A stretch of 29,815 bases of DNA, taken from NCBI GenBank assembly GCA_016927815.1, contig JAFGLY010000169.1, positions 1 to 29,815 on the forward strand, read 5' to 3'. The DNA is from Deltaproteobacteria bacterium (GTDB lineage Bacteria > Myxococcota_A > UBA796 > JAFGLY01). A program made the translations under genes and the position numbers. The stretch's first letter is position 1. Every line of letters starts with the position of its first letter. The notes under the pieces were generated by a model. It searched no databases, was not told where the DNA came from, and saw only the letters and a program-made list of their open reading frames with translations. Shown here one piece after another: positions 10 to 22,472 of the stretch.

Positions 10-1023
10 TCAGGCGAGGAGCGGGTGCCGCCAGTTGCGTACCTTCATCGTCCAGGAAGGCGGCGTGGGGGTCTGGATTTCGGGCGGTCGCTCGCCCGCC
101 AGCGCCAGGGCGGACACCCGCACGTCCTCGCCGAGGCGCATCGTGTTGTAGCCGCCCTCGAGCACCGCCATGGTGGGCACCCGCTCGACGAAGGCATGGA
201 GCATCCAGGCCATGGCCAGGTTGGAGCAGGCCATGCCGCCGATGAGATCCCCTTCCATCACGTCGAAGCCGACCGAAGCGACACACACGTCCGGCCGGAA
301 CCGGTCCACGGCCGGAAGGATCAGGCGCTCCAGGGCGGTGAGGTAGTAGCCGTCGTCCGCACCGACCGGGAGCGGGACGTTCAGCGTGAAGCCGTAGCCC
401 GGGCCCTCGCCCACCTCGGAGGCCGCACCGGTGCCCGGGTAGAAGGGCCACCGGTGGAGGGAGACGTACAGGACGTCGGGCGACGCCCAGAACGCTTCCT
501 GCGTGCCGTTGCCGTGGTGCACGTCCGGATCGAAGACCACGACCTTCCGCCCCTCGGCCACGAGTGCCGCTGTGGCGATCGCGGCGTTGTTGAAGATGCA
601 GAAGCCCATGGCCTGGTCGCGCGTCGCGTGGTGCCCGGGGGGCCGGCACAGCACCAGGCCGTTGGTCCCGGCCATGGCGGTGGCCGCGGCGTCCACCGAC
701 GCCCCCGCAGCCACCAGCGCGGCGTCCACGGATCCCGGTGAGGCCGAGGTGTCCGCGTCGAACCAGACGTGTCGTCCCCGAGCGGCGAGAACCCGGTCCA
801 CGTAGGACGGCAGGTGAATCCGCTCCAGCTCCTCGCGCGTGGCGGGGCGCCCGGGTCGCGTGGGCCACCCGTGCGGCGCAAGCGCCCGCCGAATGGCCAC
901 GAGCCGCGCCGGGGACTCCGGGTGCCCGTAGCCGGGGTCGTGCGCGTCGAACCGGGGATCGTCGTAGAGGATCAGCGAACCTGGCGCCTCGCGCGCCGGG
1001 AACCGGGTTGGATCGTCCGGCAT
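10..1023 (-). CDS. Histone deacetylase / acetoin-utilisation AcuC family (arginase-deacetylase superfamily) protein
   Basis: Real coding part of the 682-aa minus-strand ORF begins at the ATG at 1021-1023 (MPDDPTRF...). Motifs read: LVLCRPPGHHA, FCIFNNAAIA, DPDVHHGNGTQ, LYVSLHRWPFYPGTG and GGY near the C-terminus, which are the canonical HDAC/AcuC catalytic signatures. The part of the ORF upstream of the ATG (to 2058) is Arg/Pro/Gly-rich GC junk. Confidence 0.8.
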   Translation of the reverse strand: MPDDPTRFPAREAPGSLILYDDPRFDAHDPGYGHPESPARLVAIRRALAPHGWPTRPGRPATREELERIHLPSYVDRVLAARGRHVWFDADTSASPGSVDAALVAAGASVDAAATAMAGTNGLVLCRPPGHHATRDQAMGFCIFNNAAIATAALVAEGRKVVVFDPDVHHGNGTQEAFWASPDVLYVSLHRWPFYPGTGAASEVGEGPGYGFTLNVPLPVGADDGYYLTALERLILPAVDRFRPDVCVASVGFDVMEGDLIGGMACSNLAMAWMLHAFVERVPTMAVLEGGYNTMRLGEDVRVSALALAGERPPEIQTPTPPSWTMKVRNWRHPLLA

Positions 1024-1043
1024 GTCGCCTCCGGCAGAGGCAT

Positions 1044-2798
1044 TCAATGTAGCGTCCCCGAGCAGGAGAGCGTCCCTCCGGGCGGCGGCACGACAGGTCG
1101 GGCGCGCGGATCGGGGGGCAGGGGGACGATCTCCAGCTCGCCCACCAGCACCTCGGGAACTGAGAGCCAGGTGGGCAGGCCCTCCACCGGGGAGAAGGAG
1201 GCGTGACCCGGGCGGAAGGAAGCCAGGAAGGTGCCTTCGACCTGGGGCCCCGCAGCCACGAGGTCCCTCAGGGCAAACCGGTCGAGCCGGGCGAAGCCCC
1301 CGCCGCGCAGCGTCTCCTCCCGGCCGTCGCGGTACAGGCGCACGATCTCCACGGGCAGAGGCGGGCGCTCGCCGTCGTCCGCGGGCAGGAGCCCCGGATC
1401 CCCGACCCGCCGGACGGTGTCGTCCTGCAGGCGGCGGACCACCAGCACGCTGTCGAGCCCGTAGGAGCGTGCGAGCGCCAGGGCCGTGCGGCGCAGGCGG
1501 GCATGGGTGTGGCGCCGGGCGGGCACCACCTCGAGAAGCGAGGCGCGGCCGGCCGGCCGGGCTCCGGGCGCCCCGCGTGCGTGGCCGTTGGAGGCCTGGA
1601 TCTCCTTGCGCGGCACGCGGCTCATGAGCAGGGTGCGGACGATGCCGTCGGACACGAGGTCCACGCGGCGGGCGGGCGTCCCCTCGAGATCGTAGCGGAA
1701 GGAGGCCGGGTGCGCCGGATCCCGCACAGGATCGTCGAACGCGGACCAGCCCCCGGGCAGGACCCGGCGGCCCACCCGGGGCTCCCGGCCCCGGTCGGCC
1801 GCGAGCGACAGGAATCCCTCGCCCAGCGGTCCCAACTCGCTCTCGAAGGGCACGGGCGGAGGGGTCCCCTCCAGCTGGGGCAGGAGGAGGAGGCGGAACA
1901 GGTCCACCGCGGCTCCGTCCTGGAAGATCACCGGGCCCACGTACTCCTGCTCGAGGAGCGGGGCGGCGGCGGCTCGAGCGAGGTTCTCGGTCAGATCCCG
2001 GACGGCTTCCGAGAGGCGATCGGTCTCCGGGAGGTCGGCCAGTGTCCGGGCGATCCACGTGCGGTGGTCCGTGAGCGCCATGCCGTCGGGCGCCTGGGCG
2101 CGGGCCATGACCCGGACCACGGCCTCGGCGTGCGGCCGGGCGATCCGGGTTCCCTCGGAGTCGACCAGGAGCATCGTGCCGGCCTCACAGGCGACCACCG
2201 CGGTCCCACCCACCAGCGATCCGTCCGCGGGCAGCCGCGCCGAGAGGAAACGCGCCAGGTCCCGGACGTGGGTCCTGTCGAGGGCGGGCGGGGGGCTGCC
2301 GGCGGGCACCCGGTGCGGGGCCTCGAGCCGGTAGTCGCCCGGATGGTCCGGGGGCGGCTGGAAGGAGGCCCGCTTGCGGGCGTACTGCTCGACCGCCTCC
2401 TTGTAGGCCCAGTCGGTGAGGGCCCAGATCCCGAGCCGGAGCGCGTGGGGCGTGAGCCGGGCCGGAAGCGGGCGAGCGCCGAAGCCCGTCTCCCAGCCCC
2501 CGAAGTTCGTGTTGTCGAAGGTGGGATCCCCCACCCGCACCTCGATGCCCACCAGGTTCCGGGGTCCGGCCTCCTCCTCCACGAGGGCGCCGAACGAGGC
2601 CGTGGCCAGAACCTGGTCGAGGAGCATCCCGTGGTAGCGCAGGTGGTAGAAGGGCGGGGCGCCGGGCAGCTCGAGGGCCGCCCGCTGGCGGGCCACCTCG
2701 TTTGCGAGCACGTCGGCGAAGGCCTCCGGCGCCAGGGGCACGGGGTCGGCGACCGCCTGCGGGCCAAACGCCAGGGTTGCGTAGAGAAGCGCCCTCAC
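1044..2798 (-). CDS. tldE: TldE/PmbA-family peptidase-like protein (no HExxxH motif), predicted exported
   Basis: Proposed GTG start at 2796-2798 overlaps the TGA of the upstream tldD-like gene (GTGA). N-terminus VRALLYATLAFGPQAVA-DP reads as a signal peptide. C-terminal half has the TldD/PmbA (peptidase U62) architecture (…SFRYDLEGTPARRVDLVSDGIVR…NGHARG…) but no HExxxH, which fits the TldE partner. The far-upstream part of the 1107-aa ORF is spurious because it overlaps tldD in another frame. Confidence 0.65.
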   Translation of the reverse strand: MRALLYATLAFGPQAVADPVPLAPEAFADVLANEVARQRAALELPGAPPFYHLRYHGMLLDQVLATASFGALVEEEAGPRNLVGIEVRVGDPTFDNTNFGGWETGFGARPLPARLTPHALRLGIWALTDWAYKEAVEQYARKRASFQPPPDHPGDYRLEAPHRVPAGSPPPALDRTHVRDLARFLSARLPADGSLVGGTAVVACEAGTMLLVDSEGTRIARPHAEAVVRVMARAQAPDGMALTDHRTWIARTLADLPETDRLSEAVRDLTENLARAAAAPLLEQEYVGPVIFQDGAAVDLFRLLLLPQLEGTPPPVPFESELGPLGEGFLSLAADRGREPRVGRRVLPGGWSAFDDPVRDPAHPASFRYDLEGTPARRVDLVSDGIVRTLLMSRVPRKEIQASNGHARGAPGARPAGRASLLEVVPARRHTHARLRRTALALARSYGLDSVLVVRRLQDDTVRRVGDPGLLPADDGERPPLPVEIVRLYRDGREETLRGGGFARLDRFALRDLVAAGPQVEGTFLASFRPGHASFSPVEGLPTWLSVPEVLVGELEIVPLPPDPRARPVVPPPGGTLSCSGTLH

Positions 2799-4456
2799 GG
2801 GTCGCCTCCGCCGGCCTGGGGCCGGGGCAGGAGCGGTGGACGATCCTCGCCCTTCTCCTTGCGCTGGAACTCGAGGGTCCGGAACAGCAGGCTCGGAGCG
2901 ACCGCGCTCACGGGCACCCAGCCGCTCTCGGCTCCGCACAGGCCGTTGAACACGCCCGGATCGTCGCCCGCAGCCAGGATGGAGGAGAAGGCCAGGAGCG
3001 GCGTGCCCACGAGGTCGATGCCGCGCACCCGCTCGTCCGGGCGTCCATCCACGTACACCCGGCGCGATCGGGTGGCGCGGACGTTGAAGGCGTTGGGCGT
3101 GACCCGACCGGTGGTCGTGAAACCGCCCTCGATCTCCTCCACCACGATGCCGTAGGGAAGTCCCTGGCGTCGGGCCTCCTGCTTGAGCCGATCGATCAGA
3201 CGGGCGGCCGACACGGCCCCGCGCGCCTCCACCACGGTGTTGCCCATGCGGGCCACCGGCGCGTGGCCCGCCATGCGTCGGCCATGGCCGTTGGACGTGG
3301 GAAACCCGGGGATGGGGGAGCGGTTCGTGAGGAAACCCCGGAAGATCCCCTTCTCCACGAGCACGGCCCGGGTGGCGGGCACGCCCTCGTCGTCCCACGG
3401 GTAGGCGCCGTTCAGGTCCTCGCCGGCGTACCGGGTGGTCGACGGGTCGTCCCACACGTCCAGGAACGCGGGCAGGATGGGACGCCCCACCTTCTCGGCG
3501 AAGGTCTTGCCCTCGTCGTCGCGCTTCTGGCGGTGGCCCTCGACCCGGTGGCCCAGCACCTCGTGGAAGAAGACCGCAGCCGCCCGGGCGTCGAGGATCA
3601 CCGGCCCGCGGTAGGGCTCGCCGCGCGGCGCGTCCAGGAGGGCGCCCAGCTCGTCCACGAGTCGGCCCGCGAGATCGATCAGGCGCGCCTCGGACGGGAG
3701 CCCCTCCAGGCTGCGGAACGAGAGCGTGCGCTCGGCCGAGAGGTCGTCGCCGTCGGGGGCCACCGTGCCGGCCAGGAGGCTCAGCCGGACCCAGGTGCCG
3801 CCGTGCACCAGGCGGCTGCCCTCGGTGTCCACGAAGGTCTTCTGCACCTGCTCCACCTGGAGGCTCGCCCGGGCCACGTGGACCCGCGGGTCGGCGTCCA
3901 TGCGGGCGGAGACACGCGCCAGGCGGCCCTCCCAGGGGACGGATTCGAGGGCAACCCACCGGATGGGCTGGCGGTCCTCCACCTTTGCACGTGGCTCGAA
4001 ATCCGGGGCCTGGGTCTCCTCCTCGACCTTGACCGACAGGTTGGCGCGGACGATGCCGATCCGGTTCCTGGCCTCGCGGTAGCGGGCGTCCAGCTCCGCC
4101 CACACGGCCTGGCGGAGGGCATGGGTCGGCTCGTCCTCGAAGGGGATCCTCAGGCGGTCGCGGGTGGAGTCGGTCCAGGCGCTCATGCCTCGGAGGGGAT
4201 GGGTGGAGTCGAGGTCGGGCGTGCCGACCCTCAGGTCCACGTCGAGGGTCCGGCTGCGCCCCACCTCGCTCGACGCCAGCGTGCCGGCCAGGGCGACCAC
4301 GTCGAGCGTGCGGTGATCCTCGACCTGGAGCGCGGCGTAGTGGACGGGCTGTGGACCGGCCGCCCACGCGGACCGGGCCCGGTCCAACTCGGAGACGAGC
4401 ACGTCCTCGACCGACGCGGCGAGCCCTGTCGACAGCAGGAGGAACGCGAGGAGCAC
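2795..4456 (-). CDS. tldD: TldD-family zinc metallopeptidase, predicted exported
   Basis: HEVLGHRVEGH (HExxxGH) metal-binding motif plus TldD/PmbA C-terminal domain (GFPTSNGHGRR, GNTVVE). Proposed GTG start at 4454-4456 is preceded by GGAGG 4-5 nt upstream (cctcc at 4461-4465 on + strand). N-terminus (M)LLAFLLLSTGLAAS looks like a signal peptide. Exact start uncertain; upstream in-frame ATGs would overlap the radical SAM gene. Confidence 0.75.
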   Translation of the reverse strand: MLLAFLLLSTGLAASVEDVLVSELDRARSAWAAGPQPVHYAALQVEDHRTLDVVALAGTLASSEVGRSRTLDVDLRVGTPDLDSTHPLRGMSAWTDSTRDRLRIPFEDEPTHALRQAVWAELDARYREARNRIGIVRANLSVKVEEETQAPDFEPRAKVEDRQPIRWVALESVPWEGRLARVSARMDADPRVHVARASLQVEQVQKTFVDTEGSRLVHGGTWVRLSLLAGTVAPDGDDLSAERTLSFRSLEGLPSEARLIDLAGRLVDELGALLDAPRGEPYRGPVILDARAAAVFFHEVLGHRVEGHRQKRDDEGKTFAEKVGRPILPAFLDVWDDPSTTRYAGEDLNGAYPWDDEGVPATRAVLVEKGIFRGFLTNRSPIPGFPTSNGHGRRMAGHAPVARMGNTVVEARGAVSAARLIDRLKQEARRQGLPYGIVVEEIEGGFTTTGRVTPNAFNVRATRSRRVYVDGRPDERVRGIDLVGTPLLAFSSILAAGDDPGVFNGLCGAESGWVPVSAVAPSLLFRTLEFQRKEKGEDRPPLLPRPQAGGGDP

Positions 4457-4479
4457 CTGGCCTCCGACCGGCGGGGAAC

Positions 4480-4593
4480 GGTGCCGGCGTGGGTCGGGCG
4501 ATCCTATCGCGGGCGGCCGCCGCCGCCCGGGAGGAACCGGTGCTGGCGTGGGTCGGGCTATCCTATCGGGGGCGGCCGCTGCCGCCCGGGAGG
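4480..4593. repeat. Imperfect tandem direct repeat, 2 copies of about 55 nt with 59-nt period (4480-4534 and 4539-4593), in the tldD/radical-SAM divergent intergenic region
   Basis: Copy 1 ggtgccggcgtgggtcgggcgatcctatcgcgggcggccgccgccgcccgggagg versus copy 2 ggtgctggcgtgggtcgggctatcctatcgggggcggccgctgccgcccgggagg (4 mismatches). Period 59 is not a multiple of 3. Each copy ends in a GGGAGG SD-like element; the copy-2 element sits 5 nt before the radical SAM ATG. A partial third end-of-unit (ggcggggaacg) precedes copy 1. Confidence 0.75.
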
Positions 4594-4598
4594 TGCTC

Positions 4599-5639
4599 AT
4601 GCCGATCCACGCCCCAGCCCGCTGGTGGCACCGCATCGAGGAGGGTCCGGAGGCCGGGCGCATCGCGTGCGACCTCTGTCCGCGTGCGTGCGTGCTCGGC
4701 CCGGGTCAGCGCGGCTGGTGCCGCGTCCGCGAGGCGCTCCCGGACGGGTCGGCCCTGGTGACCTGCTCCGGCCTCACCTCCGGGTTCTCCGTGGACCCCA
4801 TCGAGAAGAAGCCGCTCCACCACTTCCTGCCGGGAAGCACGGTGCTCTCCTTCGGGACCACGGGGTGCAACCTGGGCTGTCGCTTCTGCCAGAACCACCA
4901 CATGTCGCGGGCTCGGGAGCTGCCCACGGTGCCGGGTCCACCTGAGGCCGTGGCCGAGGCTGCCGTCCGCGCGGGGTGCGCCAGCGTGGCCTTCACCTAC
5001 AACGAGCCCACGATCTTCGCCGAGTACGCCATGGACGTAGCCGATGCCTGCCACGCCCGGGGCGTGCGCACGGTGGCCGTCACCAACGGCTACATCGCTC
5101 GCGATGCGCGGCGCGACTTCACCTCGGTGCTCGACGCGGTCAACATCGATCTCAAGGCCTTCTCGGACGCCTTCTACCGCCGCTGGTGCGGCGGCACGCT
5201 GGCACCGGTGATGGAGACCATCGAGTACGCGGTCCGGGAGTCGAGATGCTGGGTGGAGCTGACCACCCTCCTCATCCCCGGCCTGAACGACACGGACAGC
5301 GAGATCGAGGCGCTGTGCGCCTGGGTGGCGGGTTCACTCGGCCCGGACGTACCCCTGCACTTCTCGGCCTTCCACCCGTCGTACCGCATGCTGGACCGGC
5401 CGCGCACCCCTCCGTCCACCCTCCACCGGGCTGCCCACATCGCCCGTCGGCATGGGATCCGATACGTCTACACCGGCAACATCGCCGATCCCGAAGGCCA
5501 GGCCACGCGGTGTCCCGGCACCCAGGGACGGCCGTGTGGTGCCCTGCTCGTGGAGCGCCACGGGTTCGGGGCCCGGGTCGTGGGCCTCGACGGCGACCGC
5601 TGCCGCGTTTGCGGCGCACGGATCGCCGGGGTGTTCTGA
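4599..5639 (+). CDS. AmmeMemoRadiSam-system-type radical SAM enzyme (PFL-activase-like)
   Basis: ATG at 4599 with GGGAGG 5 nt upstream. CxxxCxxC radical SAM cluster in the context FGTTGCNLGCRFCQNHHMS, preceded by an N-terminal Cys pair (ACDLCPRAC…GWCRVRE) and DPIEKKPLHHFLPGS. This block is characteristic of the AMMECR1/Memo-associated radical SAM family (TIGR04337-like). The alternative upstream GTG at 4548 would add a repeat-encoded extension and is disfavoured. Confidence 0.8.
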   Translation: MPIHAPARWWHRIEEGPEAGRIACDLCPRACVLGPGQRGWCRVREALPDGSALVTCSGLTSGFSVDPIEKKPLHHFLPGSTVLSFGTTGCNLGCRFCQNHHMSRARELPTVPGPPEAVAEAAVRAGCASVAFTYNEPTIFAEYAMDVADACHARGVRTVAVTNGYIARDARRDFTSVLDAVNIDLKAFSDAFYRRWCGGTLAPVMETIEYAVRESRCWVELTTLLIPGLNDTDSEIEALCAWVAGSLGPDVPLHFSAFHPSYRMLDRPRTPPSTLHRAAHIARRHGIRYVYTGNIADPEGQATRCPGTQGRPCGALLVERHGFGARVVGLDGDRCRVCGARIAGVF

Positions 5640-12990: not shown

Positions 12991-15900
12991 TTACGGGGTC
13001 CACGTGAGGGACAGCCCCACCGATCTCCCGTCGCGGGTCTCCTCGGTGACGTTGCCGGCCACGGTCTGGCGGGAGGGCCAGTCGAGCAGGTTGGAGACCT
13101 TGAGCCGGACCTGCCAGTGGGGGCCAAAGCCCTGGGTCGCGACCATGTCCACCCGGTGCACGGGCTCCTCGTAGGCGTCGGGGATCCCCGACTTGCCGAC
13201 CTCGACGATCCGCGGTCCGAAGGCGTTGTAGAGGAGTGAGACAGAGGTCCTGACGTCGGGGTTCTCGTAGCTCAACTGGGCGTTGACCACCCAGGGGGAC
13301 TGACCCTGCAGGGGGCGTTCCTCCGACGTCTGGTTGCCCTCCGTGTCGGAGAGGTCGACCTTCGACGAGATGAGCGAGACGTTGGAGCTGGCGTACACGT
13401 CCTCGAGCAGCGGGAGGAGGGCGTCCAGGCGCTGCCGGAACTCCAGCTCCGCACCCAGGTTGGTCGCGCTCGTCGCGTTGTCGAACGTGCCCAGGCTGCC
13501 GGACACCGCGCTCACGGCGACCACCGACTCGATCGGGTGGTCGAAGTACTTGAAGAAGGCCCCGACCGAGAGGCTCTCCCCCGCACGGGGGTACCATTCC
13601 CAGCGCAGGTCGAGGTTGTCGATGGTGGCTCGCTCGAGGTCCGGGTTTCCATAGAGGGAGCGACCGGTGCGGTAGTCGTAGTAGGCCACCTCGGTCAACT
13701 CACGGAACTCGGGTCGGGACAGGGTGCGCCCGTAGCCGGCCCTGAGGAGCATCCCGTCCGGATCCGCGGCGTTGCCCAGGCCGATGGTCACGGTGGCGGC
13801 TGGCAGTACGTCCCGAGACTCGAGGGTTGCCTCCACAGGTTCCTTGCTCGTGTCGAACAGTTCGAACGTCGTCACGCCCTGTACGGAATGCTCGTACCGC
13901 AGGCCGGCCAGCGTGCGGAGGCGCGAAGTCCAGGCCGCGTCGATCATGCCGTACGCTCCCCGGAGCGACTGGCTTGCCGTGTAGTCGTCCGAGTTGGCGG
14001 TGTTCTCTTCAATCTGCAGGTAGCCCGGATCCCCCTCCTCCTCGGCCCCGATGTTGGAGGGCACGATGACCTGGTCGATGGGAGCCGTGAGGTCGATGCC
14101 CTCGGTGCCCTTGAAGCCGTAGGAGAAGCGCCGGACGGTGGAGGCCCGATCGCGGCTCGCCCTGGCGCCTCCGACCTTGATGACGGTGTCGTGGCCGACT
14201 CGCGGGAGGTGCCAGGCGAGGTCCAGCCTCAGGTCACGGGTGGTGTCGTCGAGGGTCTGGTACTGGATGTCGTTCCACCCCCCACGCTGGGAGAGCACCA
14301 GGCCTTCCTCGGTGTCCAGGTAGGTCCACTCCCGTCGGTCGGGCTCGAGCCGCGTCGCGAACGCCAGGGCGTAGCGGGCGGCGGCCTCGACACGACCGAG
14401 GTCCACGTCCAGGGCGAGCTGCTCGAAGGCGAGTTGCTGCTCCACCCAGTCGATCCGCTCGTTGTAGGTGTCGCTGCTGCCCTCCGGGTCGTCCCAGGTC
14501 CAGCGGAGCGCGGTCCCCTGGGAGGCCCGATTGATGAGCGTCGTCGAGGAGAAGCGGACCACGTCCCTCCAGTCCAGGCCGAGGGAGAGGGCCCCGCCCA
14601 CGCGGACCCGGTTCGAGGTGTCCACGAACGCCGTGCGGCGGGCGACCTGGAGTCGGTCCAGGCCCGCTGCGTACACGGTCCGGACCCCCTCCTCGACGTT
14701 CCATGCGTTCGAGTAGACCAGAGCGCCCAGAGCCCCCAGTTCGGCCTCCCCGACCTTCCACCTCCGGCCGGCGCTCGCGGTCAGGCCGAGGTCGGGAGGC
14801 AGCGTACGCGCCTCGTGGGTCCAGCGATTGGGGATCATCTCCCCGTAGCGCTCGAGTTCCTCGGGCGAGTACCCGAGGTCCGAGAAGATCCCCTTGGACT
14901 TCAACGGCTGCTCGGCGCTGGCCTCGGCGACCTCTGCTGGGAGGGCCCGCCAGCCGGCCCCTACCCCCAGCCAGTCGGTGGGACCGGACGGCGCGACCCG
15001 TGCGTCGGAAAGGGTGGCCCCCCCCACCCACGTCCCCGACACACCGAGGCTCAGGACCGGCGTCTCCGGGATGCTCCGCGTGCGGATCTCCACCACCCCG
15101 CCTCCGAACTCACCCGGCCGGTCCGGAGAGAACGTCTTCTGGACGACGATGGCCTCGATGAGGGCGGTTGGGAAGAGGTCGAGGGGCACGACCCTCTTCT
15201 CCGGTTCCGGGCTCGGCAAGGCCGAGTCGTTGAGCAGGGTGGAGGAGTAGCGATCGCCCAGCCCGCGTACATAGACGTACCTGCCGCCGATCACGGTCAG
15301 GCCCGTGACCCGCTTCAGCGCAGCGGCGGCGTCGCTGTCGCCGGCCCGGGTCATCTGCTCGGCCCCCAGCACGTCGGATACCGCAGCCGCCTCTTTGCGC
15401 TCATCGAGGAGCGAGGCGGTACCGCCCGTGATCCGAGGCGCCGTGATCGTCAGGTCCGAGAGGACCAGCCCGATCTTCTCCAGGGAGAAGGAGAGGGAGC
15501 GCGCCTCGCCGGGAACCACCCGGACGGTCTGGGTGTGGGCCTCGTAGCCGGCGCGGATGGCGGTGACCTCCCATGTCCCTGCGGGCAGGGTGAGCGAACC
15601 GGTGCCGTCCGCAGCGGTCGTGGCGGCCGCCCCCGCGCCCCTGACGAACAGCCGTACGTCGGCGAGAGGGACTCCGGCGGACCGATCGGTGACCGTTCCG
15701 ACCACCGTTCCGGGCGGACCGGCCGGCACCACCGCCACGGCCTCCTCCACAGACGGCGCTTCCAGATGGACCTGAGGCTCCCCTGCACCCACCGTGACCA
15801 GCATCTCGGTGGTCCGGCCAGCGGCCACGGGCACCTCGGACACGGCTGCGACCGGAAGGCCTGGAGCTTCGACGTGCACCTCGACCCGGCCGGGCAGGAG

Positions 15901-16065
15901 GTCGATGCGGAAGACCCCCCACTCGTCGGTCCGGACCTCGGTCTCGCCCGCCCACACCCGGGCGTCCGGCACCGGCGTTCCGTCGACGTCGAAGACCACC
16001 CCCGAGAGGGATCCGGTCTGGGCCAGGGCGGCGCCCGCCAGGAGCAGGAGGGCGATCAAGGACAC
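12991..16065 (-). CDS. TonB-dependent outer-membrane transporter with N-terminal carboxypeptidase-regulatory-like (CarboxypepD_reg) domains (Oar-like)
   Basis: Proposed GTG at 16063-16065 (GGGGGAG 7 nt upstream) gives signal peptide MSLIALLLLAGAALA-QTG. Two roughly 80-aa CarboxypepD_reg-like beta-sandwich modules follow (GSLSGVVFDVDGTPVPDARV…; GTVVGTVTDRSAGVPLADVRLFV…). The Plug domain (AVSDVLGAEQMTRAGDSDAAAALKRVTGLTVIGGRYVYVRGLGDRYSSTLLN) is followed by a long beta-barrel. The 5' extension to 17079 overlaps the TPR gene and is spurious. Confidence 0.8.
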   Translation of the reverse strand: MSLIALLLLAGAALAQTGSLSGVVFDVDGTPVPDARVWAGETEVRTDEWGVFRIDLLPGRVEVHVEAPGLPVAAVSEVPVAAGRTTEMLVTVGAGEPQVHLEAPSVEEAVAVVPAGPPGTVVGTVTDRSAGVPLADVRLFVRGAGAAATTAADGTGSLTLPAGTWEVTAIRAGYEAHTQTVRVVPGEARSLSFSLEKIGLVLSDLTITAPRITGGTASLLDERKEAAAVSDVLGAEQMTRAGDSDAAAALKRVTGLTVIGGRYVYVRGLGDRYSSTLLNDSALPSPEPEKRVVPLDLFPTALIEAIVVQKTFSPDRPGEFGGGVVEIRTRSIPETPVLSLGVSGTWVGGATLSDARVAPSGPTDWLGVGAGWRALPAEVAEASAEQPLKSKGIFSDLGYSPEELERYGEMIPNRWTHEARTLPPDLGLTASAGRRWKVGEAELGALGALVYSNAWNVEEGVRTVYAAGLDRLQVARRTAFVDTSNRVRVGGALSLGLDWRDVVRFSSTTLINRASQGTALRWTWDDPEGSSDTYNERIDWVEQQLAFEQLALDVDLGRVEAAARYALAFATRLEPDRREWTYLDTEEGLVLSQRGGWNDIQYQTLDDTTRDLRLDLAWHLPRVGHDTVIKVGGARASRDRASTVRRFSYGFKGTEGIDLTAPIDQVIVPSNIGAEEEGDPGYLQIEENTANSDDYTASQSLRGAYGMIDAAWTSRLRTLAGLRYEHSVQGVTTFELFDTSKEPVEATLESRDVLPAATVTIGLGNAADPDGMLLRAGYGRTLSRPEFRELTEVAYYDYRTGRSLYGNPDLERATIDNLDLRWEWYPRAGESLSVGAFFKYFDHPIESVVAVSAVSGSLGTFDNATSATNLGAELEFRQRLDALLPLLEDVYASSNVSLISSKVDLSDTEGNQTSEERPLQGQSPWVVNAQLSYENPDVRTSVSLLYNAFGPRIVEVGKSGIPDAYEEPVHRVDMVATQGFGPHWQVRLKVSNLLDWPSRQTVAGNVTEETRDGRSVGLSLTWTP

Positions 16066-17198
16066 GCTCCCCCGGACGTGCAGGTCTCCATGGCCACCCG
16101 CAACTGGGTGGCCCTGGCGTAGGCCTCGGGCTCGCTGATGGTCGCCAGCCAGCGCTCGGACCGGTCGAACGCGCCCAGGTGGAACCAGGCGAAGGCCAGA
16201 CCGTAGGCGATGCCGTCGTCGTCGCCCAGATCCAGGCGGAGCAGTCGCTCTTCGAGCGCGACGGCTCGCTCCCACTCCTCGCCCTCCAGGAGCAGGCCCA
16301 GGCGCTGCCGGGCCTTGGCCACGGGATCGACCACCTGACCGTTCATCCGCTGGGCGGCATCCAGGTCGCCCGCTCGGCGGTAGGCCTCGGCGGCCTCGAG
16401 TGCGAGCGCGGGGTCGAGCGTGGCCGCGCGCTCGAGGAATCGTCCCGCGTTGCGCGGCTGCCCGTCGTCGATCGCTGCGCGGGCCGACTGCACCAGCAGG
16501 TCGCGGTCGTTTCCCTGGCGGAGCAGGGCGGCCTCGAGGATGACCATCGCTTCCCCGGTGTCCCCGCCACGTCGAAGCGCCTCGGAGATGGCGATGGCGT
16601 CCTTCGCATCGGAGTCCTGACGGGCCAGGAGCGCTTCGCCATGCTCGCGCGCCTCCCGGAGGAGGCCGAGACGGACGAGCAGGAAGACCTGCTGGCGTCT
16701 CAGGTCCGGCTGGTCGGGAAGCCGGTTCGCCCCTTGCTCCAAGGCGTTCCAGGCCTCGGCCGGCCGGCCGATCTCCTCGTACGCCTGGGCTCGCAGCAGC
16801 CACGTACCGGGCAGGCTCTCCCCCATCTGGCCGGTGCGGTCGAGGGCCTCGAGCGCCCGCACGGGGTCCCTTGCCGCGAGGAGTGCCCGCGCGAGGTGCA
16901 ACTCGAGCAACTCCCGCCCCTCGGTCGCCGTCTCGAGGGCACGCTGGAACGAGACCGATGCCGCGATCGCCTTCTTCTCGTGCAGCTCGACGAGACCGCG
17001 GAGCATCCAGAGCCTCTCGGGATCGGCTCTCTCGGCATCCAGGGGGATTTCCGCCAGTATCTCGGAAGCCCGAGCCCACTGGCCCTCGCGGACGAGCAGG
17101 CCCGCGAGCGCGACCGGGTCCTCTTCGGGCACGGCCTCACGGGGCCTGGCCTCCGCCACGCCGATGAGGATCAGCCACAAGGCCAGCCAATGGCGCAT
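16056..17198 (-). CDS. TPR-repeat protein with signal peptide (TtpD-like component of the TonB2-type system)
   Basis: ATG at 17196-17198, MRHWLALWLILIGVAEA signal, then TPR-like helical repeats (Ala/Leu/Arg/Glu-rich, W/Y..A..G motifs). The stop overlaps the TBDT start by 10 nt; the start lies 3 nt downstream of the tonB stop. Confidence 0.75.
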   Translation of the reverse strand: MRHWLALWLILIGVAEARPREAVPEEDPVALAGLLVREGQWARASEILAEIPLDAERADPERLWMLRGLVELHEKKAIAASVSFQRALETATEGRELLELHLARALLAARDPVRALEALDRTGQMGESLPGTWLLRAQAYEEIGRPAEAWNALEQGANRLPDQPDLRRQQVFLLVRLGLLREAREHGEALLARQDSDAKDAIAISEALRRGGDTGEAMVILEAALLRQGNDRDLLVQSARAAIDDGQPRNAGRFLERAATLDPALALEAAEAYRRAGDLDAAQRMNGQVVDPVAKARQRLGLLLEGEEWERAVALEERLLRLDLGDDDGIAYGLAFAWFHLGAFDRSERWLATISEPEAYARATQLRVAMETCTSGGACP

Positions 17199-17200
17199 CG

Positions 17201-17830
17201 TCACTCCAGCGCGAAGCGCAGCGTCTGCCGGACGCGGACGGCCACGGGGGCGCCCTCCTGGCGCCCGGGTTCGAACGTCCACTCCTCGACCGCCATGACC
17301 GCCGCTTCGTCGAAGGTGCCCGGGGGCTCGGCCTCCACCACGTGGATGTCCTGTGCCGATCCGTCCACGTCGACCACGAAGCTCAGGGTGACGAAGCCCG
17401 AGAGCCCGAGAGCCCGAGCCCTCGCGGGGAAGGACGGCGGCTCCTGCCGGGTCGGGCGGGGAGGCACCTCCACCGCATCCTCGTCGATCACGGACGCTCC
17501 GAGATCCTGGACGAGCGCCTCCGTCACCCCGCTGAGCGCCAGGTCGGCGGCGTCGCCGAAGCCGAAGTCCAGGCCCTCCAGGCCCGCCGCGAGCAGAGGC
17601 GCCGCAGAGGGCCCCTTGCGTGCGGCCTGGCGGGCGGCCCCGGTCCGCCGCGGGCGGGACGCCCTCTGGGCGGCAGGTCGAGCGGGCACGGCGATCTCCT
17701 GGACCACGCTCACGGGCTCCAGTGCACGCTTCTCCACCTGGGCGTTCATTCCGAGGCTCAGCGCACACACGCCCGCCGTCCCCAGAACCGCGATGCCCAT
17801 GGCAGCGAGATGGCGCAGCAGGTCAGCCAT
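17201..17830 (-). CDS. tonB: TonB-family energy transducer
   Basis: ATG at 17828-17830 overlaps the exbD end (8 nt). N-terminal TM anchor (LAAMGIAVLGTAGVCALSL), a Pro/Ala/Arg-rich spacer, and a C-terminal TonB_C fold (ARARALGLSGFVTLSFVVDVDGSAQDIHVVEAEPPGTFDEAAVMAVEEWTFEP). Confidence 0.75.
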   Translation of the reverse strand: MADLLRHLAAMGIAVLGTAGVCALSLGMNAQVEKRALEPVSVVQEIAVPARPAAQRASRPRRTGAARQAARKGPSAAPLLAAGLEGLDFGFGDAADLALSGVTEALVQDLGASVIDEDAVEVPPRPTRQEPPSFPARARALGLSGFVTLSFVVDVDGSAQDIHVVEAEPPGTFDEAAVMAVEEWTFEPGRQEGAPVAVRVRQTLRFALE

Positions 17831-18230
17831 CCTCGGCGTCCGTGACCACACCGATTTCCTTCGCGCCTCCCAGCCGGCACTGATCGACGACCTCGACGAG
17901 CTTTTCGGCCGTGACCCGCCGGTCGCTGACCACGAGCACCGTCTTGTCGCCGCTCCGGGAGAGCGCATCGCGGACCCGGCTCTGGACCATCCAGGGCCGG
18001 ACGGGCGTCTCGTCGATGTAGACCGCGGCGGACCGGTCGATGAACACCCGGAGCGCCCGGGTGTTTGCCGGCGAGGCGCTCTGGGCGCCCGGGCGCTCGA
18101 TCTGCAGTTCGGCATCCTTGGCAAAGGTCGTGGTGACCATGAAGAAGATGAGCAGCACGAGGATGCAGTCGATGAGGGGCACCACGTCGATGTGTGGGTC
18201 GCTGTGGGGGGCGTGCTGTCGCCGGCTCAT
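17823..18230 (-). CDS. exbD: ExbD/TolR biopolymer transport protein
   Basis: 135 aa, MSRRQHA…IDVVPLIDCILVLLIFFMVTTTF (single TM). Periplasmic domain carries the ExbD signature (LRVFIDRSAAVYIDETPV). ATGA overlap with the upstream exbB stop. Coordinates are taken from ORF-frame arithmetic. Confidence 0.8.
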   Translation of the reverse strand: MSRRQHAPHSDPHIDVVPLIDCILVLLIFFMVTTTFAKDAELQIERPGAQSASPANTRALRVFIDRSAAVYIDETPVRPWMVQSRVRDALSRSGDKTVLVVSDRRVTAEKLVEVVDQCRLGGAKEIGVVTDAEDG

Positions 18231-18835
18231 GCGGGCACCCGCTTCAGGCTGCCCGAGTAGATGGCCTTCAACTCCTCGAGCTCCAGGCTGAGCTTCTGCT
18301 CGAAATGGTGGAGGACGCCGCCCATCAGCAGACCCGGCACGGCGATCGCGAGGCCCATCTGGGTTGCGTACAGGGCCTCGACGATGCCTCCGGCGATGCC
18401 CTCCGAGGCGGTGGAGGTCATGGACTGTCCCAACGAGCCGAAGGTCTCGATGAGCCCGGTCACCGTGCCGAGCAGGCCGAGCAAAGGCGACATGGCCACC
18501 AGGCATTTCACGAGCATCGTCCCGCGCTGGAGGCTCTCCTCGAGGTCGGCGAAGGCCTCGTCCAGGAAGGGACGGGGAACCGGGCCGCCGAATCGCCGCC
18601 AGAGGGCTGCGCCCCGGCTTGCCGCCTCTCCGATGACGCCCTGGGCACGCCCCTCCGGCCTGACCCGCCATGCAGCCACCAGGGTCCTCAGGTCGCGCCG
18701 ATCCCCCCGCCGGAGCACGAGCAAGCGCTCCCCGAGGGCGAACCAGAGCACGAAGGCGGTGGTGAAGAGGGCGGGCATGACGACGCCTCCCCCCTGCCAG
18801 AGGTCGTAGACCTGGAGCAGGAGGGAATCACTCAT
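18227..18835 (-). CDS. exbB: MotA/TolQ/ExbB proton-channel protein
   Basis: 202 aa, three TM segments with the MotA_ExbB motif (MSPLLGLLGTVTGLIETFGSL…GIAGGIVEALYATQMGLAIAVPG). The start ATGAGTGA overlaps the stop of the upstream long ExbB-like gene. Confidence 0.8.
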   Translation of the reverse strand: MSDSLLLQVYDLWQGGGVVMPALFTTAFVLWFALGERLLVLRRGDRRDLRTLVAAWRVRPEGRAQGVIGEAASRGAALWRRFGGPVPRPFLDEAFADLEESLQRGTMLVKCLVAMSPLLGLLGTVTGLIETFGSLGQSMTSTASEGIAGGIVEALYATQMGLAIAVPGLLMGGVLHHFEQKLSLELEELKAIYSGSLKRVPA

Positions 18836-20174
18836 TCGCCACCAGGAGCCGTTCGACGGGGTCCTCGTACGCGCATTCCTGTTCGGACCGCTGGAGGTCG
18901 AATGCGTTGACCAGGGCCAACGCCCCGCGTTCGACGGTGTTCTTCACGGAACTGCCGACGCTGGCCAGGAGGTTCCCGACGAGCAGGGTGGGGATGGCCA
19001 CCGCAAGACCCATGGCCGTGCAGACCAACGCCTCTGCGATGCCGGCCGACATCAGCTTCGGATTTCCGGTTCCGTGCTCGGTGATGACGTTGAAGGTCGC
19101 GATCATGCCGGTGACGGTACCGAGCAGCCCCAGCAGGGGAGCGCCGGCCGTGATGACCACCAGGGCCGAGGCGAAGCGGTCGATAAGCGGCGTCTCGCGG
19201 AGGATGGCCTCGTCCACCACGCGATCCAGCTCCTCTCGGGAACGGTGTGCGTTCTCGAAGACCGCCTTCAGCACCCGAGGGATCGATCCGCCCCGCTTCC
19301 GGAGAAGGCTCAGGGCCTCCTCGAGCCGGTCGGCCCGAACCCGTTCGGTGACGGCGTTCACGAGCGGCATGCCGCCGCGCCTCGCGAGCGCGAGCGTGCC
19401 GGCCCGCGAGAGCGCGAGAAGGGCGCTCAAGCAGCCGAGCCCGAACAGCACGTACCCCATGGCGCCCGCATCCTCGAGCACCGAGCCGAGCCCCGTCTCC
19501 TTCTCCTTTTCGATGGTCAGGCGGTCCGGCTCGAAGAGGTGGACCTCCAGATCCGCGGGTCGCTCCCCGGCGGCGAGCGCCGCGGCCGTCGCCTGGCCGA
19601 ACCTCCTTCGGAGCTGGAGCTTTCCCTCGGCCACCGGGGCCAGCGCACCCGATCCCTCATCGGATACGCCCCAGGCGGCGACCCGGCCCCAACGGAAGAT
19701 CCGTCCCTGGACCTGCTGGCCCTCGGGAAGGAAGAAGGCCCCCTCCTCCGAGCGGATCGCGCCCGTCTCGGCCAGGCGCTCGGCCGAGGCGCGGAAGATG
19801 AGCGGGATGGCCGTGGTGGGGTCGTCGAGCGGGTCGAGGTCGAGCGTGTCTTCCGCCTGCTGGAGGGTGGACGAGAGCACGGAGTTGGCGTCGTCCATCT
19901 CCCCGAGTTCGCGATCCACGATGTCGCGCTCGTCCTCGGCGAGGTCGGCCTCGTGGGCCGTGGAGACGAGCTTCGCCTGGACGGTTTCCAGACGAGCGTT
20001 CGCCTGGGCCACGCGCTGGGCGGCCTCCCCGCTCATCTCCTGGAGCCGCTCCTCGAGCTCCCGCTTCTCCGCGCTCAGGTAGGCGAACTCCTTCTGATAG
20101 GCGGCGTCCAGGCTGGACGCCATGGCCCCTGGGTCGGTGGCCAGGGCTGCGCCGAGGAGACAAAACAGGATCAT
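18828..20174 (-). CDS. Long MotA/TolQ/ExbB-family protein with about 230-aa N-terminal periplasmic coiled-coil extension (TtpC-like)
   Basis: ATG at 20172-20174, signal peptide MILFCLLGAALA. The N-terminal half is a Glu/Arg/Ala-rich coiled coil. The C-terminal half holds three TMs and the MotA_ExbB channel motif (APLLGLLGTVTGMIATFNVI…GIAEALVCTAMGLAVAIPT). This architecture equals TtpC of Vibrio TonB2 systems. Confidence 0.75.
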   Translation of the reverse strand: MILFCLLGAALATDPGAMASSLDAAYQKEFAYLSAEKRELEERLQEMSGEAAQRVAQANARLETVQAKLVSTAHEADLAEDERDIVDRELGEMDDANSVLSSTLQQAEDTLDLDPLDDPTTAIPLIFRASAERLAETGAIRSEEGAFFLPEGQQVQGRIFRWGRVAAWGVSDEGSGALAPVAEGKLQLRRRFGQATAAALAAGERPADLEVHLFEPDRLTIEKEKETGLGSVLEDAGAMGYVLFGLGCLSALLALSRAGTLALARRGGMPLVNAVTERVRADRLEEALSLLRKRGGSIPRVLKAVFENAHRSREELDRVVDEAILRETPLIDRFASALVVITAGAPLLGLLGTVTGMIATFNVITEHGTGNPKLMSAGIAEALVCTAMGLAVAIPTLLVGNLLASVGSSVKNTVERGALALVNAFDLQRSEQECAYEDPVERLLVANE

Positions 20175-20926
20175 GACCCAGCTCCCGGGTCGGGGAGCGT
20201 GAAGTCCCCGCTGCGCACGCCGTGCGCGACCTTGTTGAAGAAGCTCTCGACCGCCCTCTGGTCTTCACGCAAAGTCAGCGCCTTCCACGTCCAACCCTCG
20301 GCCGAGCGCACCGCCGTCCCGTACAGGCCGCCGTCCGTCCGGAAATACAGCGCCACCATGCCGAGTCGAGCCACGTCGGCCAGCACCTCCTGCCCGTCCA
20401 GCGGCACGATCTGTCGATCCAGGCCGTTCTCGCGGGTGAGGCGGAGCTCGTCCTCGGTGAACGCCCAGAGACGTGCCGTCGCGCCCTCCGGGGAGATCAG
20501 GCCCGAGGCGAGCTGGTCCTGGATCCTGTCCAGCTCCGCCTGCCGCTCGGCCAGGTGGAAGGGCAGGCTGAAGTCCACGGCGGTCCGGATCCGCCGGATG
20601 GACTCCAGGAGGGCCGGGGTGAGCGTCTCACCGCGCGTGCTCGAGCGGGCCAGCTCCGCCCGACTGGCGTCCACCTCGCCCCGGACCTGGGAGAGCCTGA
20701 GCTCCTCACGCCGGAGCTGGACCTCCACCTCCATCACCTGCGCCTCGACGGCCTTGATCCTGGCCCTCGTGTCCTCCTTGGAGGCTGCGATCTCGCTGGA
20801 CAGCGTCTCCACCTCGCGGCGGAGGCGCGCCAGCTCGGAAGCGCGGTGACCCGCGGCCTCCTCTGCGAACGCGCCGGCTGGCAGGCAAAGCAGGAGGACC
20901 AGGACGAATCCTCTCCGGGGGCTCAT
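20171..20926 (-). CDS. DUF3450-like periplasmic coiled-coil protein (TtpB-like, TonB-system associated)
   Basis: ATG at 20924-20926, signal peptide MSPRRGFVLVLLLCLPAGAFA. A coiled-coil N-terminal half is followed by a conserved C-terminal block (LPFHLAERQAELDRIQDQL…VALYFRTDGG.YG). The 4-nt overlap with the downstream TtpC-like start and the position match DUF3450/TtpB genes of TonB2-type clusters. Confidence 0.6.
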   Translation of the reverse strand: MSPRRGFVLVLLLCLPAGAFAEEAAGHRASELARLRREVETLSSEIAASKEDTRARIKAVEAQVMEVEVQLRREELRLSQVRGEVDASRAELARSSTRGETLTPALLESIRRIRTAVDFSLPFHLAERQAELDRIQDQLASGLISPEGATARLWAFTEDELRLTRENGLDRQIVPLDGQEVLADVARLGMVALYFRTDGGLYGTAVRSAEGWTWKALTLREDQRAVESFFNKVAHGVRSGDFTLPDPGAGS

Positions 20927-20929
20927 GGA

Positions 20930-22267: not shown

Positions 22268-22472
22268 GTTCGCTCCTGGTTGGAGGGGAAGGGATGGCTG
22301 TGGCCACCCGGTGTCGAGCGCCCAGGAGTCTACGGTCCCTGTTTGGCGGGACAGTGACGCCACGGCGGCGGGAGGATGGAGATTCGGGGGCATCCCAGGA
22401 CTTGCCGATTACCCCGATAGTGCCACTCACTTGGCCCGATCCTGTCTCATCCGGGGGATACCGTGGGCCCCT

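What the first reader, a model, noticed from the sequence alone, without database searches (positions are those of the whole stretch)
4457..4598. 59-nt tandem duplication of the radical-SAM leader, including its Shine-Dalgarno, fills the tldD / radical-SAM divergent promoter region
The 142-bp spacer between the divergent tldD-like (start 4456, minus) and AmmeMemoRadiSam radical SAM (start 4599, plus) genes is almost entirely two copies of a 55-nt unit (period 59, 4 mismatches). Each copy ends in CCCGGGAGG. Copy 2's GGGAGG is the functional SD of the radical SAM ATG. Copy 1's GGGAGG is followed 5 nt later by an in-phase GTG (4540) that opens only a junk frame. The period is not a multiple of three, so the repeat is non-coding. 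Each copy has an internal short palindrome (gcgatcctatcgc / ctatcctatcgg). A duplicated leader/operator like this could be a reiterated regulator-binding site, or an RNA element that sequesters or exposes the SD (a translational attenuator or riboregulator), or simply a recent slipped duplication.
Basis: seen in the sequence. Interest (0 to 1): 0.55.

Follow-up and report, generated by a model that had tools for sequence, protein, structure and literature searches.

The report
Duplicated control region between two genes
A 59-base stretch of the short, conserved control region between two back-to-back bacterial genes was copied head-to-tail in this lineage only, which is a real but ordinary kind of mutation and shows no sign of being an RNA switch.

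Summary
The 142-nt spacer between the TldD-like gene (GTG 4456, minus) and the AmmeMemoRadiSam-type radical SAM gene (ATG 4599, plus) holds two tandem units: 4480-4534 and 4539-4593, 55 nt, 4 mismatches, period 59.

Three sibling MAG contigs carry the same divergent gene pair (78-81% aa identity). Their spacer is 83 nt, which is 142 minus 59, and holds one unit. That unit is flanked by CCGCCCGGG direct repeats exactly 59 nt apart, a ready slippage substrate.

The two window copies resemble each other (92%) more than either resembles the orthologue (81-89%). The duplication is therefore derived in the window lineage.

The single-copy spacer is 85-88% identical between lineages, against 62-64% at four-fold sites, so the unit is a constrained control module. 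It holds the only AT-rich patch, a GC hairpin and the SD.

Nothing supports an RNA switch:
- no Rfam match;
- folding z-scores of about 0 to -2;
- no significant covariation;
- the predicted cost of opening the SD and start codon is the same with or without copy 1.

The unit is not dispersed in the roughly 230 kb of sequence held.

Verdict: a promoter-region tandem duplication, VNTR-like, as known from M. tuberculosis. Its regulatory effect is untested. Interest is low.

The parts
2795..4456 (-). TldD/PmbA-family gene (553 aa), start GTG 4456. It is the first gene of a TldD-like, PmbA-like, HDAC-like operon.
   Evidence: PF19289 and NCBIfam TldD hits. 100% identical to NCBI MBN1337049.1, 553 aa.
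4461..4465 (-). GGAGG Shine-Dalgarno of the TldD-like gene (CCTCC on the + strand), 4 nt before GTG 4456.
   Evidence: Read from the sequence. Conserved in L026, L031 and L032.
4464..4472 (+). Decayed left direct repeat, CCGACCGGC. Its counterpart in the single-copy orthologues is CCGCCCGGG. It accounts for the extra 0.3 copy that TRF reports.
   Evidence: (D1).
4476..4534 (+). Copy 1 of the 59-nt unit, proximal to tldD. It keeps the orthologue state at 4 of the 5 sites where the copies differ.
4535..4593 (+). Copy 2 of the unit, proximal to the radical SAM gene. It carries the working SD and has the extra C at 4538.
4501..4508 (.). AT-rich patch ATCCTATC of copy 1 (GATCCT on +, TAGGAT on -). 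Candidate -10 region, inferred only.
   Evidence: Invariant in all five unit sequences. No consensus sigma-70 promoter was found.
4560..4567 (.). AT-rich patch ATCCTATC of copy 2 (TATCCT on +, TAGGAT on -). Candidate -10 region, inferred only.
4511..4528 (+). GC hairpin or palindrome of copy 1: GGGCGGC-CGCC-GCCGCCC.
   Evidence: (I12).
4570..4587 (+). GC hairpin or palindrome of copy 2: GGGCGGC-CGCT-GCCGCCC.
4523..4531 (+). CCGCCCGGG direct repeat at the junction of copies 1 and 2.
4582..4590 (+). CCGCCCGGG direct repeat at the end of copy 2.
4529..4534 (+). Duplicated SD, GGGAGG (copy 1), 5 nt before GTG 4540.
4540..4761 (+). Possible by-product upstream ORF: 73 codons in the +2 phase, running across the radical SAM start. 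There is no evidence that it is translated.
4588..4593 (+). SD GGGAGG of the radical SAM gene, 5 nt before ATG 4599.
   Evidence: Conserved in the orthologues.
4599..5639 (+). AmmeMemoRadiSam-type radical SAM gene (346 aa).
   Evidence: TIGR04337, 462 bits. Equals MBN1337050.1.

Best explanation
The spacer is a lineage-specific, 59-bp head-to-tail duplication of the core of a compact bidirectional control region. That region was 83 bp in the ancestral form. It serves a TldD-like/PmbA-like/HDAC-like operon on one strand and an AmmeMemoRadiSam-type radical SAM gene on the other.

Origin (inferred from the anatomy). In the single-copy form the unit is bracketed by two CCGCCCGGG direct repeats exactly 59 bp apart. 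Replication slippage or unequal exchange between them gives exactly the observed repeat-unit-repeat-unit-repeat array.

Content of the unit (conservation shown, function inferred). The unit is a constrained regulatory module. It carries the only AT-rich patch of a 79% GC spacer (ATCCTATC, read as TATCCT on + and TAGGAT on -). This patch is the most plausible -10 region for both divergent genes. The unit also carries a GC hairpin or palindrome and the radical SAM SD.

Consequence (inferred). After the duplication each gene keeps one complete module at its ancestral distance: copy 1 for tldD and copy 2 for the radical SAM gene. The other copy sits 59 bp further upstream as a second promoter-like module. 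This is a 'promoter tandem repeat'. Its effect is probably a modest or nil change in transcription, not an RNA switch.
For: Repeat real and far above chance.

Same divergent gene pair with an 83-nt single-copy spacer in three independently assembled sibling MAG contigs, L026, L031 and L032. The alignments show one clean 59-nt gap.

CCGCCCGGG occurs twice, 59 nt apart, in the single-copy spacer.

Copy 1 vs copy 2 is 57/62 (92%). Either copy vs an orthologue is 81-89%. Both copies share the same state in the variable block, GGCGTGGG against CGCGCCCG.

The spacer minus one copy is 69-71 of 81 sites (85-88%) identical to the orthologues. Four-fold sites in the flanking genes are 62-64% identical over about 435-470 sites. 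Binomial p is 2e-6 to 2e-5.

The AT patch, the hairpin core and both SDs are invariant in all five unit sequences.

Known analogue: the 57-bp tandem repeat of the dop promoter and the lpdA VNTR in M. tuberculosis (PMC12817950).
Against: No transcription start is known. No sigma-70 consensus (9 of 12) or sigma-54-like site is found in the spacer, so the -10 assignment is inference.

Only two independent lineages could be compared, and the outgroup spacers (L028, L030) are unalignable. Polarity therefore rests on copy-to-copy similarity rather than on an outgroup.

Read-level support for the junction could not be checked.

The asymmetry in change (one substitution in copy 1; three substitutions plus one inserted base in copy 2) is not significant.
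Confidence: 0.7

Rival explanations
1. Adaptive uncoupling of an overlapping bidirectional promoter. In the 83-bp form the two genes share one -10 patch, with TATCCT on + and TAGGAT on - overlapping by 5 nt, so the polymerases compete for it. The duplication gives each gene its own copy and the copies then subfunctionalise.
For: The single AT patch lies about 28 nt from the radical SAM start and about 38 nt from the tldD start in the single-copy form (read). The only derived change in copy 1 (T to G at 4500) destroys the plus-strand TATCCT and leaves the minus-strand TAGGAT intact. Copy 2 keeps TATCCT. The duplicate has persisted long enough to gather 4-5 substitutions and an indel.
Against: There is no TSS data and no consensus promoter. 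The argument rests on one substitution. The asymmetry between the copies (1 change against 4) is not significant. Persistence is also expected for a neutral repeat once mismatches shorten the identical runs; the longest is 14 nt.
Confidence: 0.2
2. Riboregulator or translational attenuator. Copy 1 and copy 2 form alternative RNA structures that hide or expose the radical SAM SD.
For: Each unit has a strong GC hairpin abutting the SD. The left arm of copy 1 can pair with the right arm of copy 2 (I1: 22 nt, 86% complementary). GGCGTGGGTCGG in both copies is complementary to codons 2-5, 4602-4613. Copy 2 plus the start of the CDS folds with z = -1.9 to -2.1.
Against: No Rfam family matches at gathering score. 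The best weak hit has E = 0.78. The whole leader gives z = -0.8 and single units give z of about 0. The hairpin shows 9 of 11 pairs invariant, 2 pairs broken without compensation, and no covariation. One double change in a 5-bp stem is matched by 242 of 500 shuffles. The leader-CDS helix is not kept in the same register in L026. The predicted cost of opening the SD and ATG is 7.7-8.3 kcal/mol with or without copy 1. The relatives function with one copy.
Confidence: 0.05
3. Reiterated operator. The GC palindrome (CCCGGGCGGC-N4-GCCGCCCGGG in the orthologues) or the AT-centred palindrome is a transcription-factor site, and the duplication doubles it.
For: A perfect 10-4-10 inverted repeat occurs in L026, L031 and L032, with its core invariant in all units. 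The pattern of conserved stem sequence and variable loop also fits a DNA site.
Against: No regulator gene lies in the conserved cluster. The outer palindrome positions have decayed in both window copies. The AT-centred palindromes differ in register between lineages. The 59-bp spacing puts the two sites on opposite faces of the helix. No further copies occur in the roughly 230 kb held.
Confidence: 0.1
4. Two copies are ancestral, and the sibling clade lost one by recombination between copies.
For: Deletion between tandem copies is mechanistically easy. No alignable outgroup exists.
Against: The copies are closer to each other (92%) than to the orthologue (81-89%), and they share the variable-block state. 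This reading would therefore also need gene conversion. The single-copy form retains both flanking 9-mers intact, as expected for the pre-duplication state.
Confidence: 0.07
5. Assembly artefact in the MAG contig.
For: The source is a metagenome assembly, and the reads could not be inspected.
Against: The copies differ at 4 sites plus an indel. The longest identical run is 14 nt, shorter than any usual assembly k-mer, so the junction must have been spanned by reads. Assemblers tend to collapse tandem repeats rather than create them.
Confidence: 0.03

Closest known systems
Promoter tandem repeats and intergenic VNTRs of GC-rich bacteria, for example the 57-bp dop promoter repeat and the lpdA VNTR of Mycobacterium tuberculosis (PMC12817950)
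   Same: Unit length of about 57-59 bp. Head-to-tail copies directly upstream of a gene in its control region. Copy number differs between related genomes. Strand slippage or recombination is the presumed origin.
   Different: Here the copies have diverged (92%), so the array is probably no longer hypervariable. It lies between divergent genes and so duplicates elements for both. No TSS or expression data exist. Copy-number variation is seen only between lineages, not within a population.
MIRU-type dispersed minisatellites (mycobacterial interspersed repetitive units; from my own knowledge)
   Same: Intergenic tandem units of 40-100 bp in a high-GC genome.
   Different: MIRUs are a dispersed family at many loci, typically inside operons. 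This unit is found only at this one orthologous locus in all sequence available.
5'-UTR translational attenuators and SD-sequestering leaders
   Same: A GC hairpin abuts the SD, and the leader is complementary to the first codons.
   Different: No covariation, no significant stability, no Rfam family, and no predicted effect of copy 1 on SD accessibility.

Membership tests
Intergenic or promoter tandem repeat (VNTR-like) | Head-to-tail copies of a 10-100 bp unit in non-coding DNA | tested here: met
   TRF gives period 59, 2.3 copies, score 201. A 59-nt indel relative to the orthologues rules out coding on either strand.
Intergenic or promoter tandem repeat (VNTR-like) | Copy number differs among related genomes | tested here: met
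   Two copies in the window and one copy in L026, L031 and L032.
Intergenic or promoter tandem repeat (VNTR-like) | The repeat overlaps a mapped promoter or TSS and changes expression | not testable with these tools
   No transcriptome is available. Consensus scans found nothing.
Dispersed repeat family (MIRU, REP or MITE-like) | Many copies at unrelated loci in the genome | tested here: inconclusive
   No further copy in the 29.8-kb contig or in the roughly 230 kb of loci held. Collection scans gave only 19-21-nt chance matches. The rest of the source MAG is not in the collections.
Structured cis-regulatory RNA (riboswitch, attenuator or leader) | Match to a curated RNA family | tested here: not met
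   Rfam gave 0 hits at gathering score. The best weak hit has E = 0.78.
Structured cis-regulatory RNA (riboswitch, attenuator or leader) | Structure supported by compensatory changes | tested here: not met
   Hairpin: 9 of 11 pairs invariant and 2 broken. One double change in a 5-bp stem, matched by 242 of 500 shuffles. Power is low because only two lineages are available.
Structured cis-regulatory RNA (riboswitch, attenuator or leader) | Folding energy well below shuffled controls, and alternative folds that change SD access | tested here: not met
   z-scores range from +0.5 to -2.1. The opening energy of the SD and ATG is unchanged by copy 1.
Sigma-70 or sigma-54 consensus promoter | Two consensus elements at canonical spacing | tested here: not met
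   No sigma-70-type site in the spacer of the window or of L026. No TGGCAC-N5-TTGC-like site within 4457-4598 at up to 3 mismatches. Only a -10-like TATCCT/TAGGAT is present.
AmmeMemoRadiSam system (context gene) | Radical SAM enzyme matching TIGR04337 above its cut-off | tested here: met
   462 bits against a cut-off of 220.
AmmeMemoRadiSam system (context gene) | Adjacent AMMECR1-like and Memo-like partner genes | tested here: not met
   The neighbours are TldD-like, PmbA-like, HDAC-like and SPFH genes. No PF01871 or PF01875 hit was found among the flanking ORFs scanned.

The most novel reading that the evidence does not exclude
The duplication is an adaptive resolution of promoter conflict. 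A single shared -10 patch that drove two divergent genes was duplicated, and the copies then subfunctionalised: copy 1 lost the plus-strand TATCCT and copy 2 kept it. This would uncouple expression of the secreted TldD/PmbA protease operon from that of the radical SAM gene. It would be a natural example of bidirectional-promoter subfunctionalisation by a 59-bp tandem duplication.
Probability: 0.15. Interest if true: 0.45.

Novelty: new member of a known kind. Interest (0 to 1): 0.2.

Why it matters
On its own it matters little. It is a clean, well-documented example of how short flanking direct repeats seed a tandem duplication of a bacterial control region, with both the 'before' state (83 bp) and the 'after' state (142 bp) available.

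It does mark out a compact 83-bp bidirectional control region, conserved in this clade, for a gene cluster found in several Myxococcota-like lineages: AmmeMemoRadiSam-type radical SAM gene, divergent from TldD-like, PmbA-like and HDAC-like genes. The biology of that cluster is unknown. The one-copy and two-copy alleles would be ready-made constructs for testing how the two divergent genes are driven.

Tried and rejected
1. Dispersed-element idea. Unit sub-patterns were searched in the window, in genome contigs and metagenome contigs and by blastn against all held loci. Only 19-21-nt chance hits turned up. Limitation: the collection pattern, GGGTCGGGCNATCCTATCG, lay in what later proved to be the least conserved block of the unit.

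2. Known RNA families. Rfam was searched at gathering score and at E up to 1. Nothing credible was found.

3. RNA switch. This was tested with folding z-scores, consensus folding, pair counts and opening energies. No support.

4. Sigma-70, sigma-54 and ECF-type promoters. Sigma-70 and sigma-54 were scanned, with no match in the spacer. ECF-type GGAAC-N16/17-CGT was checked by eye only; the spacings are 8-13 nt, so it was rejected.

5. Longer TldD ORF starting at the minus-strand ATG 4600 and reading through the repeat. Rejected for three reasons: NCBI's protein starts at GTG 4456; GGAGG lies 4 nt upstream of that GTG; and a 59-nt indel relative to the orthologues would shift the frame.

6. More relatives. 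The nearest radical SAM homologues are at most 62% identical, and the P0002 locus is not syntenic. An N-terminal TldD query returned nothing close. P0145 does not reach the spacer. L028 and L030 keep the gene order but have unrelated spacers. L029 has no radical SAM neighbour.

7. Excess synonymous conservation at the 5' ends of the two genes, which would point to promoters embedded in the coding sequence. None was found.

Full report
**Observation**

The window is a complete 29,815-nt contig of an NCBI MAG labelled 'Deltaproteobacteria bacterium', 71.5% GC.

Tandem Repeats Finder reports one strong array at 4460-4593: period 59, 2.3 copies, 88% matches, score 201. Positions 4480-4534 and 4539-4593 are 55 nt long and differ at four sites (4485, 4500, 4510, 4521). 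Copy 2 has one extra C at 4538. Two 24-mers from the unit each occur exactly twice in the window, and none of 100 shuffles reaches two matches.

- A TldD/PmbA-family gene on the minus strand. Its NCBI protein (MBN1337049.1, 553 aa) fixes the start at GTG 4456. GGAGG lies 4 nt upstream of it.
- An AmmeMemoRadiSam-type radical SAM gene starting at ATG 4599 (TIGR04337, 462 bits against a cut-off of 220; MBN1337050.1).

Further downstream on the minus strand lie a PmbA-like gene and a histone-deacetylase-family gene.

**Comparative evidence**

The lineage is thinly sampled. The best radical SAM homologue other than the protein itself is 62% identical.

The TldD-like protein has one closer cluster at 78% identity. 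Its three members lie on contigs of three sibling assemblies: L026, L031 and L032, from GCA_041309265.1, GCA_041309225.1 and GCA_041309205.1. All three carry the same divergent arrangement of radical SAM gene against TldD-like, PmbA-like and HDAC-like genes. In all three the spacer is 83 nt, which is 142 minus 59. Alignment with the window shows a single clean 59-nt gap and otherwise a well-conserved spacer.

More distant relatives keep the gene order, but their spacers of 156 and 259 nt are unrelated in sequence. These are L028 (TldD 64% identical) and L030 (62%).

**Which state is derived**

Copy 1 against copy 2 is 57/62 (92%). Copy 1 against the orthologues is 85-89%. Copy 2 against the orthologues is 81-84%.

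Both copies share the same sequence in the one variable block, GGCGTGGG, where the sibling clade has CGCGCCCG. The simplest reading is that the duplication happened in the window's lineage after the split. The alternative, two ancestral copies with a loss in the sibling clade, would also require gene conversion.

Five sites differ between the copies. Copy 1 keeps the orthologue state at four of them, counting the indel. Copy 2 keeps it at one, the T of TATCCT. This asymmetry is not statistically significant.

**How it arose**

In the single-copy spacer the 9-mer CCGCCCGGG occurs twice, exactly 59 nt apart. One copy sits next to the tldD SD and the other forms the 5' part of the radical SAM SD region. 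Slippage or unequal exchange between these repeats produces exactly the repeat-unit-repeat-unit-repeat structure seen.

This also explains TRF's extra 0.3 copy: the leftmost repeat has since decayed to CCGACCGGC at 4464-4472. The mechanism is inferred from the anatomy, but the fit is exact.

**Is the unit functional?**

With one copy removed, the spacer is 69-71 of 81 positions (85-88%) identical between the two lineages. Four-fold degenerate sites of the flanking genes are only 62-64% identical over about 435-470 sites, and third codon positions are about 70% identical. Binomial p is 2e-6 to 2e-5. The unit is therefore under purifying selection.

The following are invariant in all five unit sequences:
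- the block GGTGC;
- the only AT-rich patch of the 79% GC spacer, ATCCTATC;
- the core of a GC hairpin, GGGCGGC-N4-GCCGCCC;
- CCCGGGAGG.

The patch reads TATCCT on the plus strand and TAGGAT on the minus strand. In the 83-nt form it lies about 28 nt before the radical SAM ATG and about 38 nt before the tldD GTG. I infer that it is the -10 region for one or both divergent promoters.

That assignment is not shown. No consensus sigma-70 promoter (9 of 12) exists in either spacer, and no sigma-54-like site falls in the spacer. ECF-type spacing does not fit either.

**RNA-switch hypothesis**

- Rfam gives nothing at gathering score and only an E = 0.78 hit below it.
- Folding z-scores are -0.8 for the whole leader, about 0 for single units, and -1.9 to -2.1 for copy 2 plus the start of the CDS.
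- The last value reflects a 12-bp complementarity between GGCGTGGGTCGG in each copy and codons 2-5. This helix is not kept in the same register in L026.
- In the hairpin, 9 of 11 pairs never vary and two are broken in the window copies without compensation.
- One double change in a small upstream 5-bp stem is equalled by 242 of 500 shuffles.
- The computed cost of opening the SD and start codon is 7.7-8.3 kcal/mol whether or not copy 1 is in the transcript.

I find no support for an attenuator built from the two copies. With only two lineages, however, the power of the covariation test is low.

**Dispersal**

The unit occurs nowhere else in the contig, nor in the roughly 230 kb of loci fetched. 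Scans of the genome and metagenome collections with a unit sub-pattern returned only 19-21-nt chance matches.

That pattern lay in the variable block and could not have detected the sibling clade. The source MAG itself is in neither collection. Dispersal within its own genome therefore remains untested.

**Interpretation**

This is a derived, slippage-type tandem duplication of a constrained bidirectional control module. Each gene retains one full module at its ancestral distance, and the other copy becomes a second, more distal module.

The closest described phenomenon is the promoter tandem repeat or intergenic VNTR of M. tuberculosis. Examples are the 57-bp dop promoter repeat, whose copy number varies among Erdman substrains, and the lpdA VNTR, whose copy number sets expression (PMC12817950).

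The window's duplication is not very recent. The copies have gathered 4-5 substitutions and an indel, and their longest identical run is 14 nt. That makes collapse unlikely and also argues against an assembly artefact.

Whether the duplication changes expression is unknown. The most interesting reading still open is that it uncoupled two overlapping divergent promoters. The single derived change in copy 1 removes the plus-strand TATCCT but not the minus-strand TAGGAT. That rests on one substitution.

**Verdict**

The feature is real and its origin is explained. It is an ordinary kind of event, so I score it as a new member of a known kind with low interest.

Noticed in passing
L026:906-988, L031:1048-1130, L032:1031-1113: The three sibling contigs are 99.8-99.9% identical in coding DNA, yet 3 of their 12 segregating sites in 5230 nt fall in the 83-nt spacer (Fisher p = 7.6e-4, odds ratio 21). 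So the control region is conserved over the long term but is a hot spot of micro-diversity within that population. Alternatively it is a hot spot of consensus errors in a GC-rich palindromic stretch.
   Followed up: partly
window 10-5639; L026, L028, L030, L031, L032: The cluster of an AmmeMemoRadiSam-type radical SAM gene divergent from TldD-like, PmbA-like and HDAC-like genes is conserved across lineages with only 60-80% protein identity. The radical SAM gene has no adjacent AMMECR1 or Memo partner here. The TldD-like protein begins with a hydrophobic, signal-peptide-like stretch, MLLAFLLLSTGLAAS (read). The function of the cluster is unknown.
   Followed up: partly
window 4486-4497 and 4545-4556 vs 4602-4613: GGCGTGGGTCGG in each repeat copy is complementary to codons 2-5 of the radical SAM gene, CCGATCCACGCC: 12 bp with one G-U pair (I9 and I10). 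It is marginal against shuffles (z about -2). L026 does not keep it in the same register; there a different upstream block pairs with the SD and ATG.
   Followed up: yes
window 4598-4601: CATG at the radical SAM start is also an ATG on the minus strand, in frame with the TldD ORF. This gives a spurious 622-aa ORF (2795-4663) that reads through the repeat. It was rejected as a real start.
   Followed up: yes
window 12991-22393: A minus-strand run of genes for a TonB-dependent receptor with CarboxypepD_reg domains, TonB_C, two MotA/ExbB-family proteins and DUF3450. A T2SSE-family ATPase lies at 25630-27624, and an OmpR-type response regulator at 22095-23177. This is context only.
   Followed up: no
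window 22148-22197: An 18-nt tandem repeat, 2.4 copies, TRF score 60. This is the second-best array in the window. It lies where the 5' end of the minus-strand ORF 20930-22393 overlaps the listed response-regulator ORF.
   Followed up: no
L002, L003, L004, L005, L014 (collection hits): Five unrelated genomes or metagenome contigs share the same 20-nt string that matches copy 1 (query positions 34/35-53/54). The number of hits is within the chance expectation for the pattern, so I took them as coincidence.
   Followed up: partly
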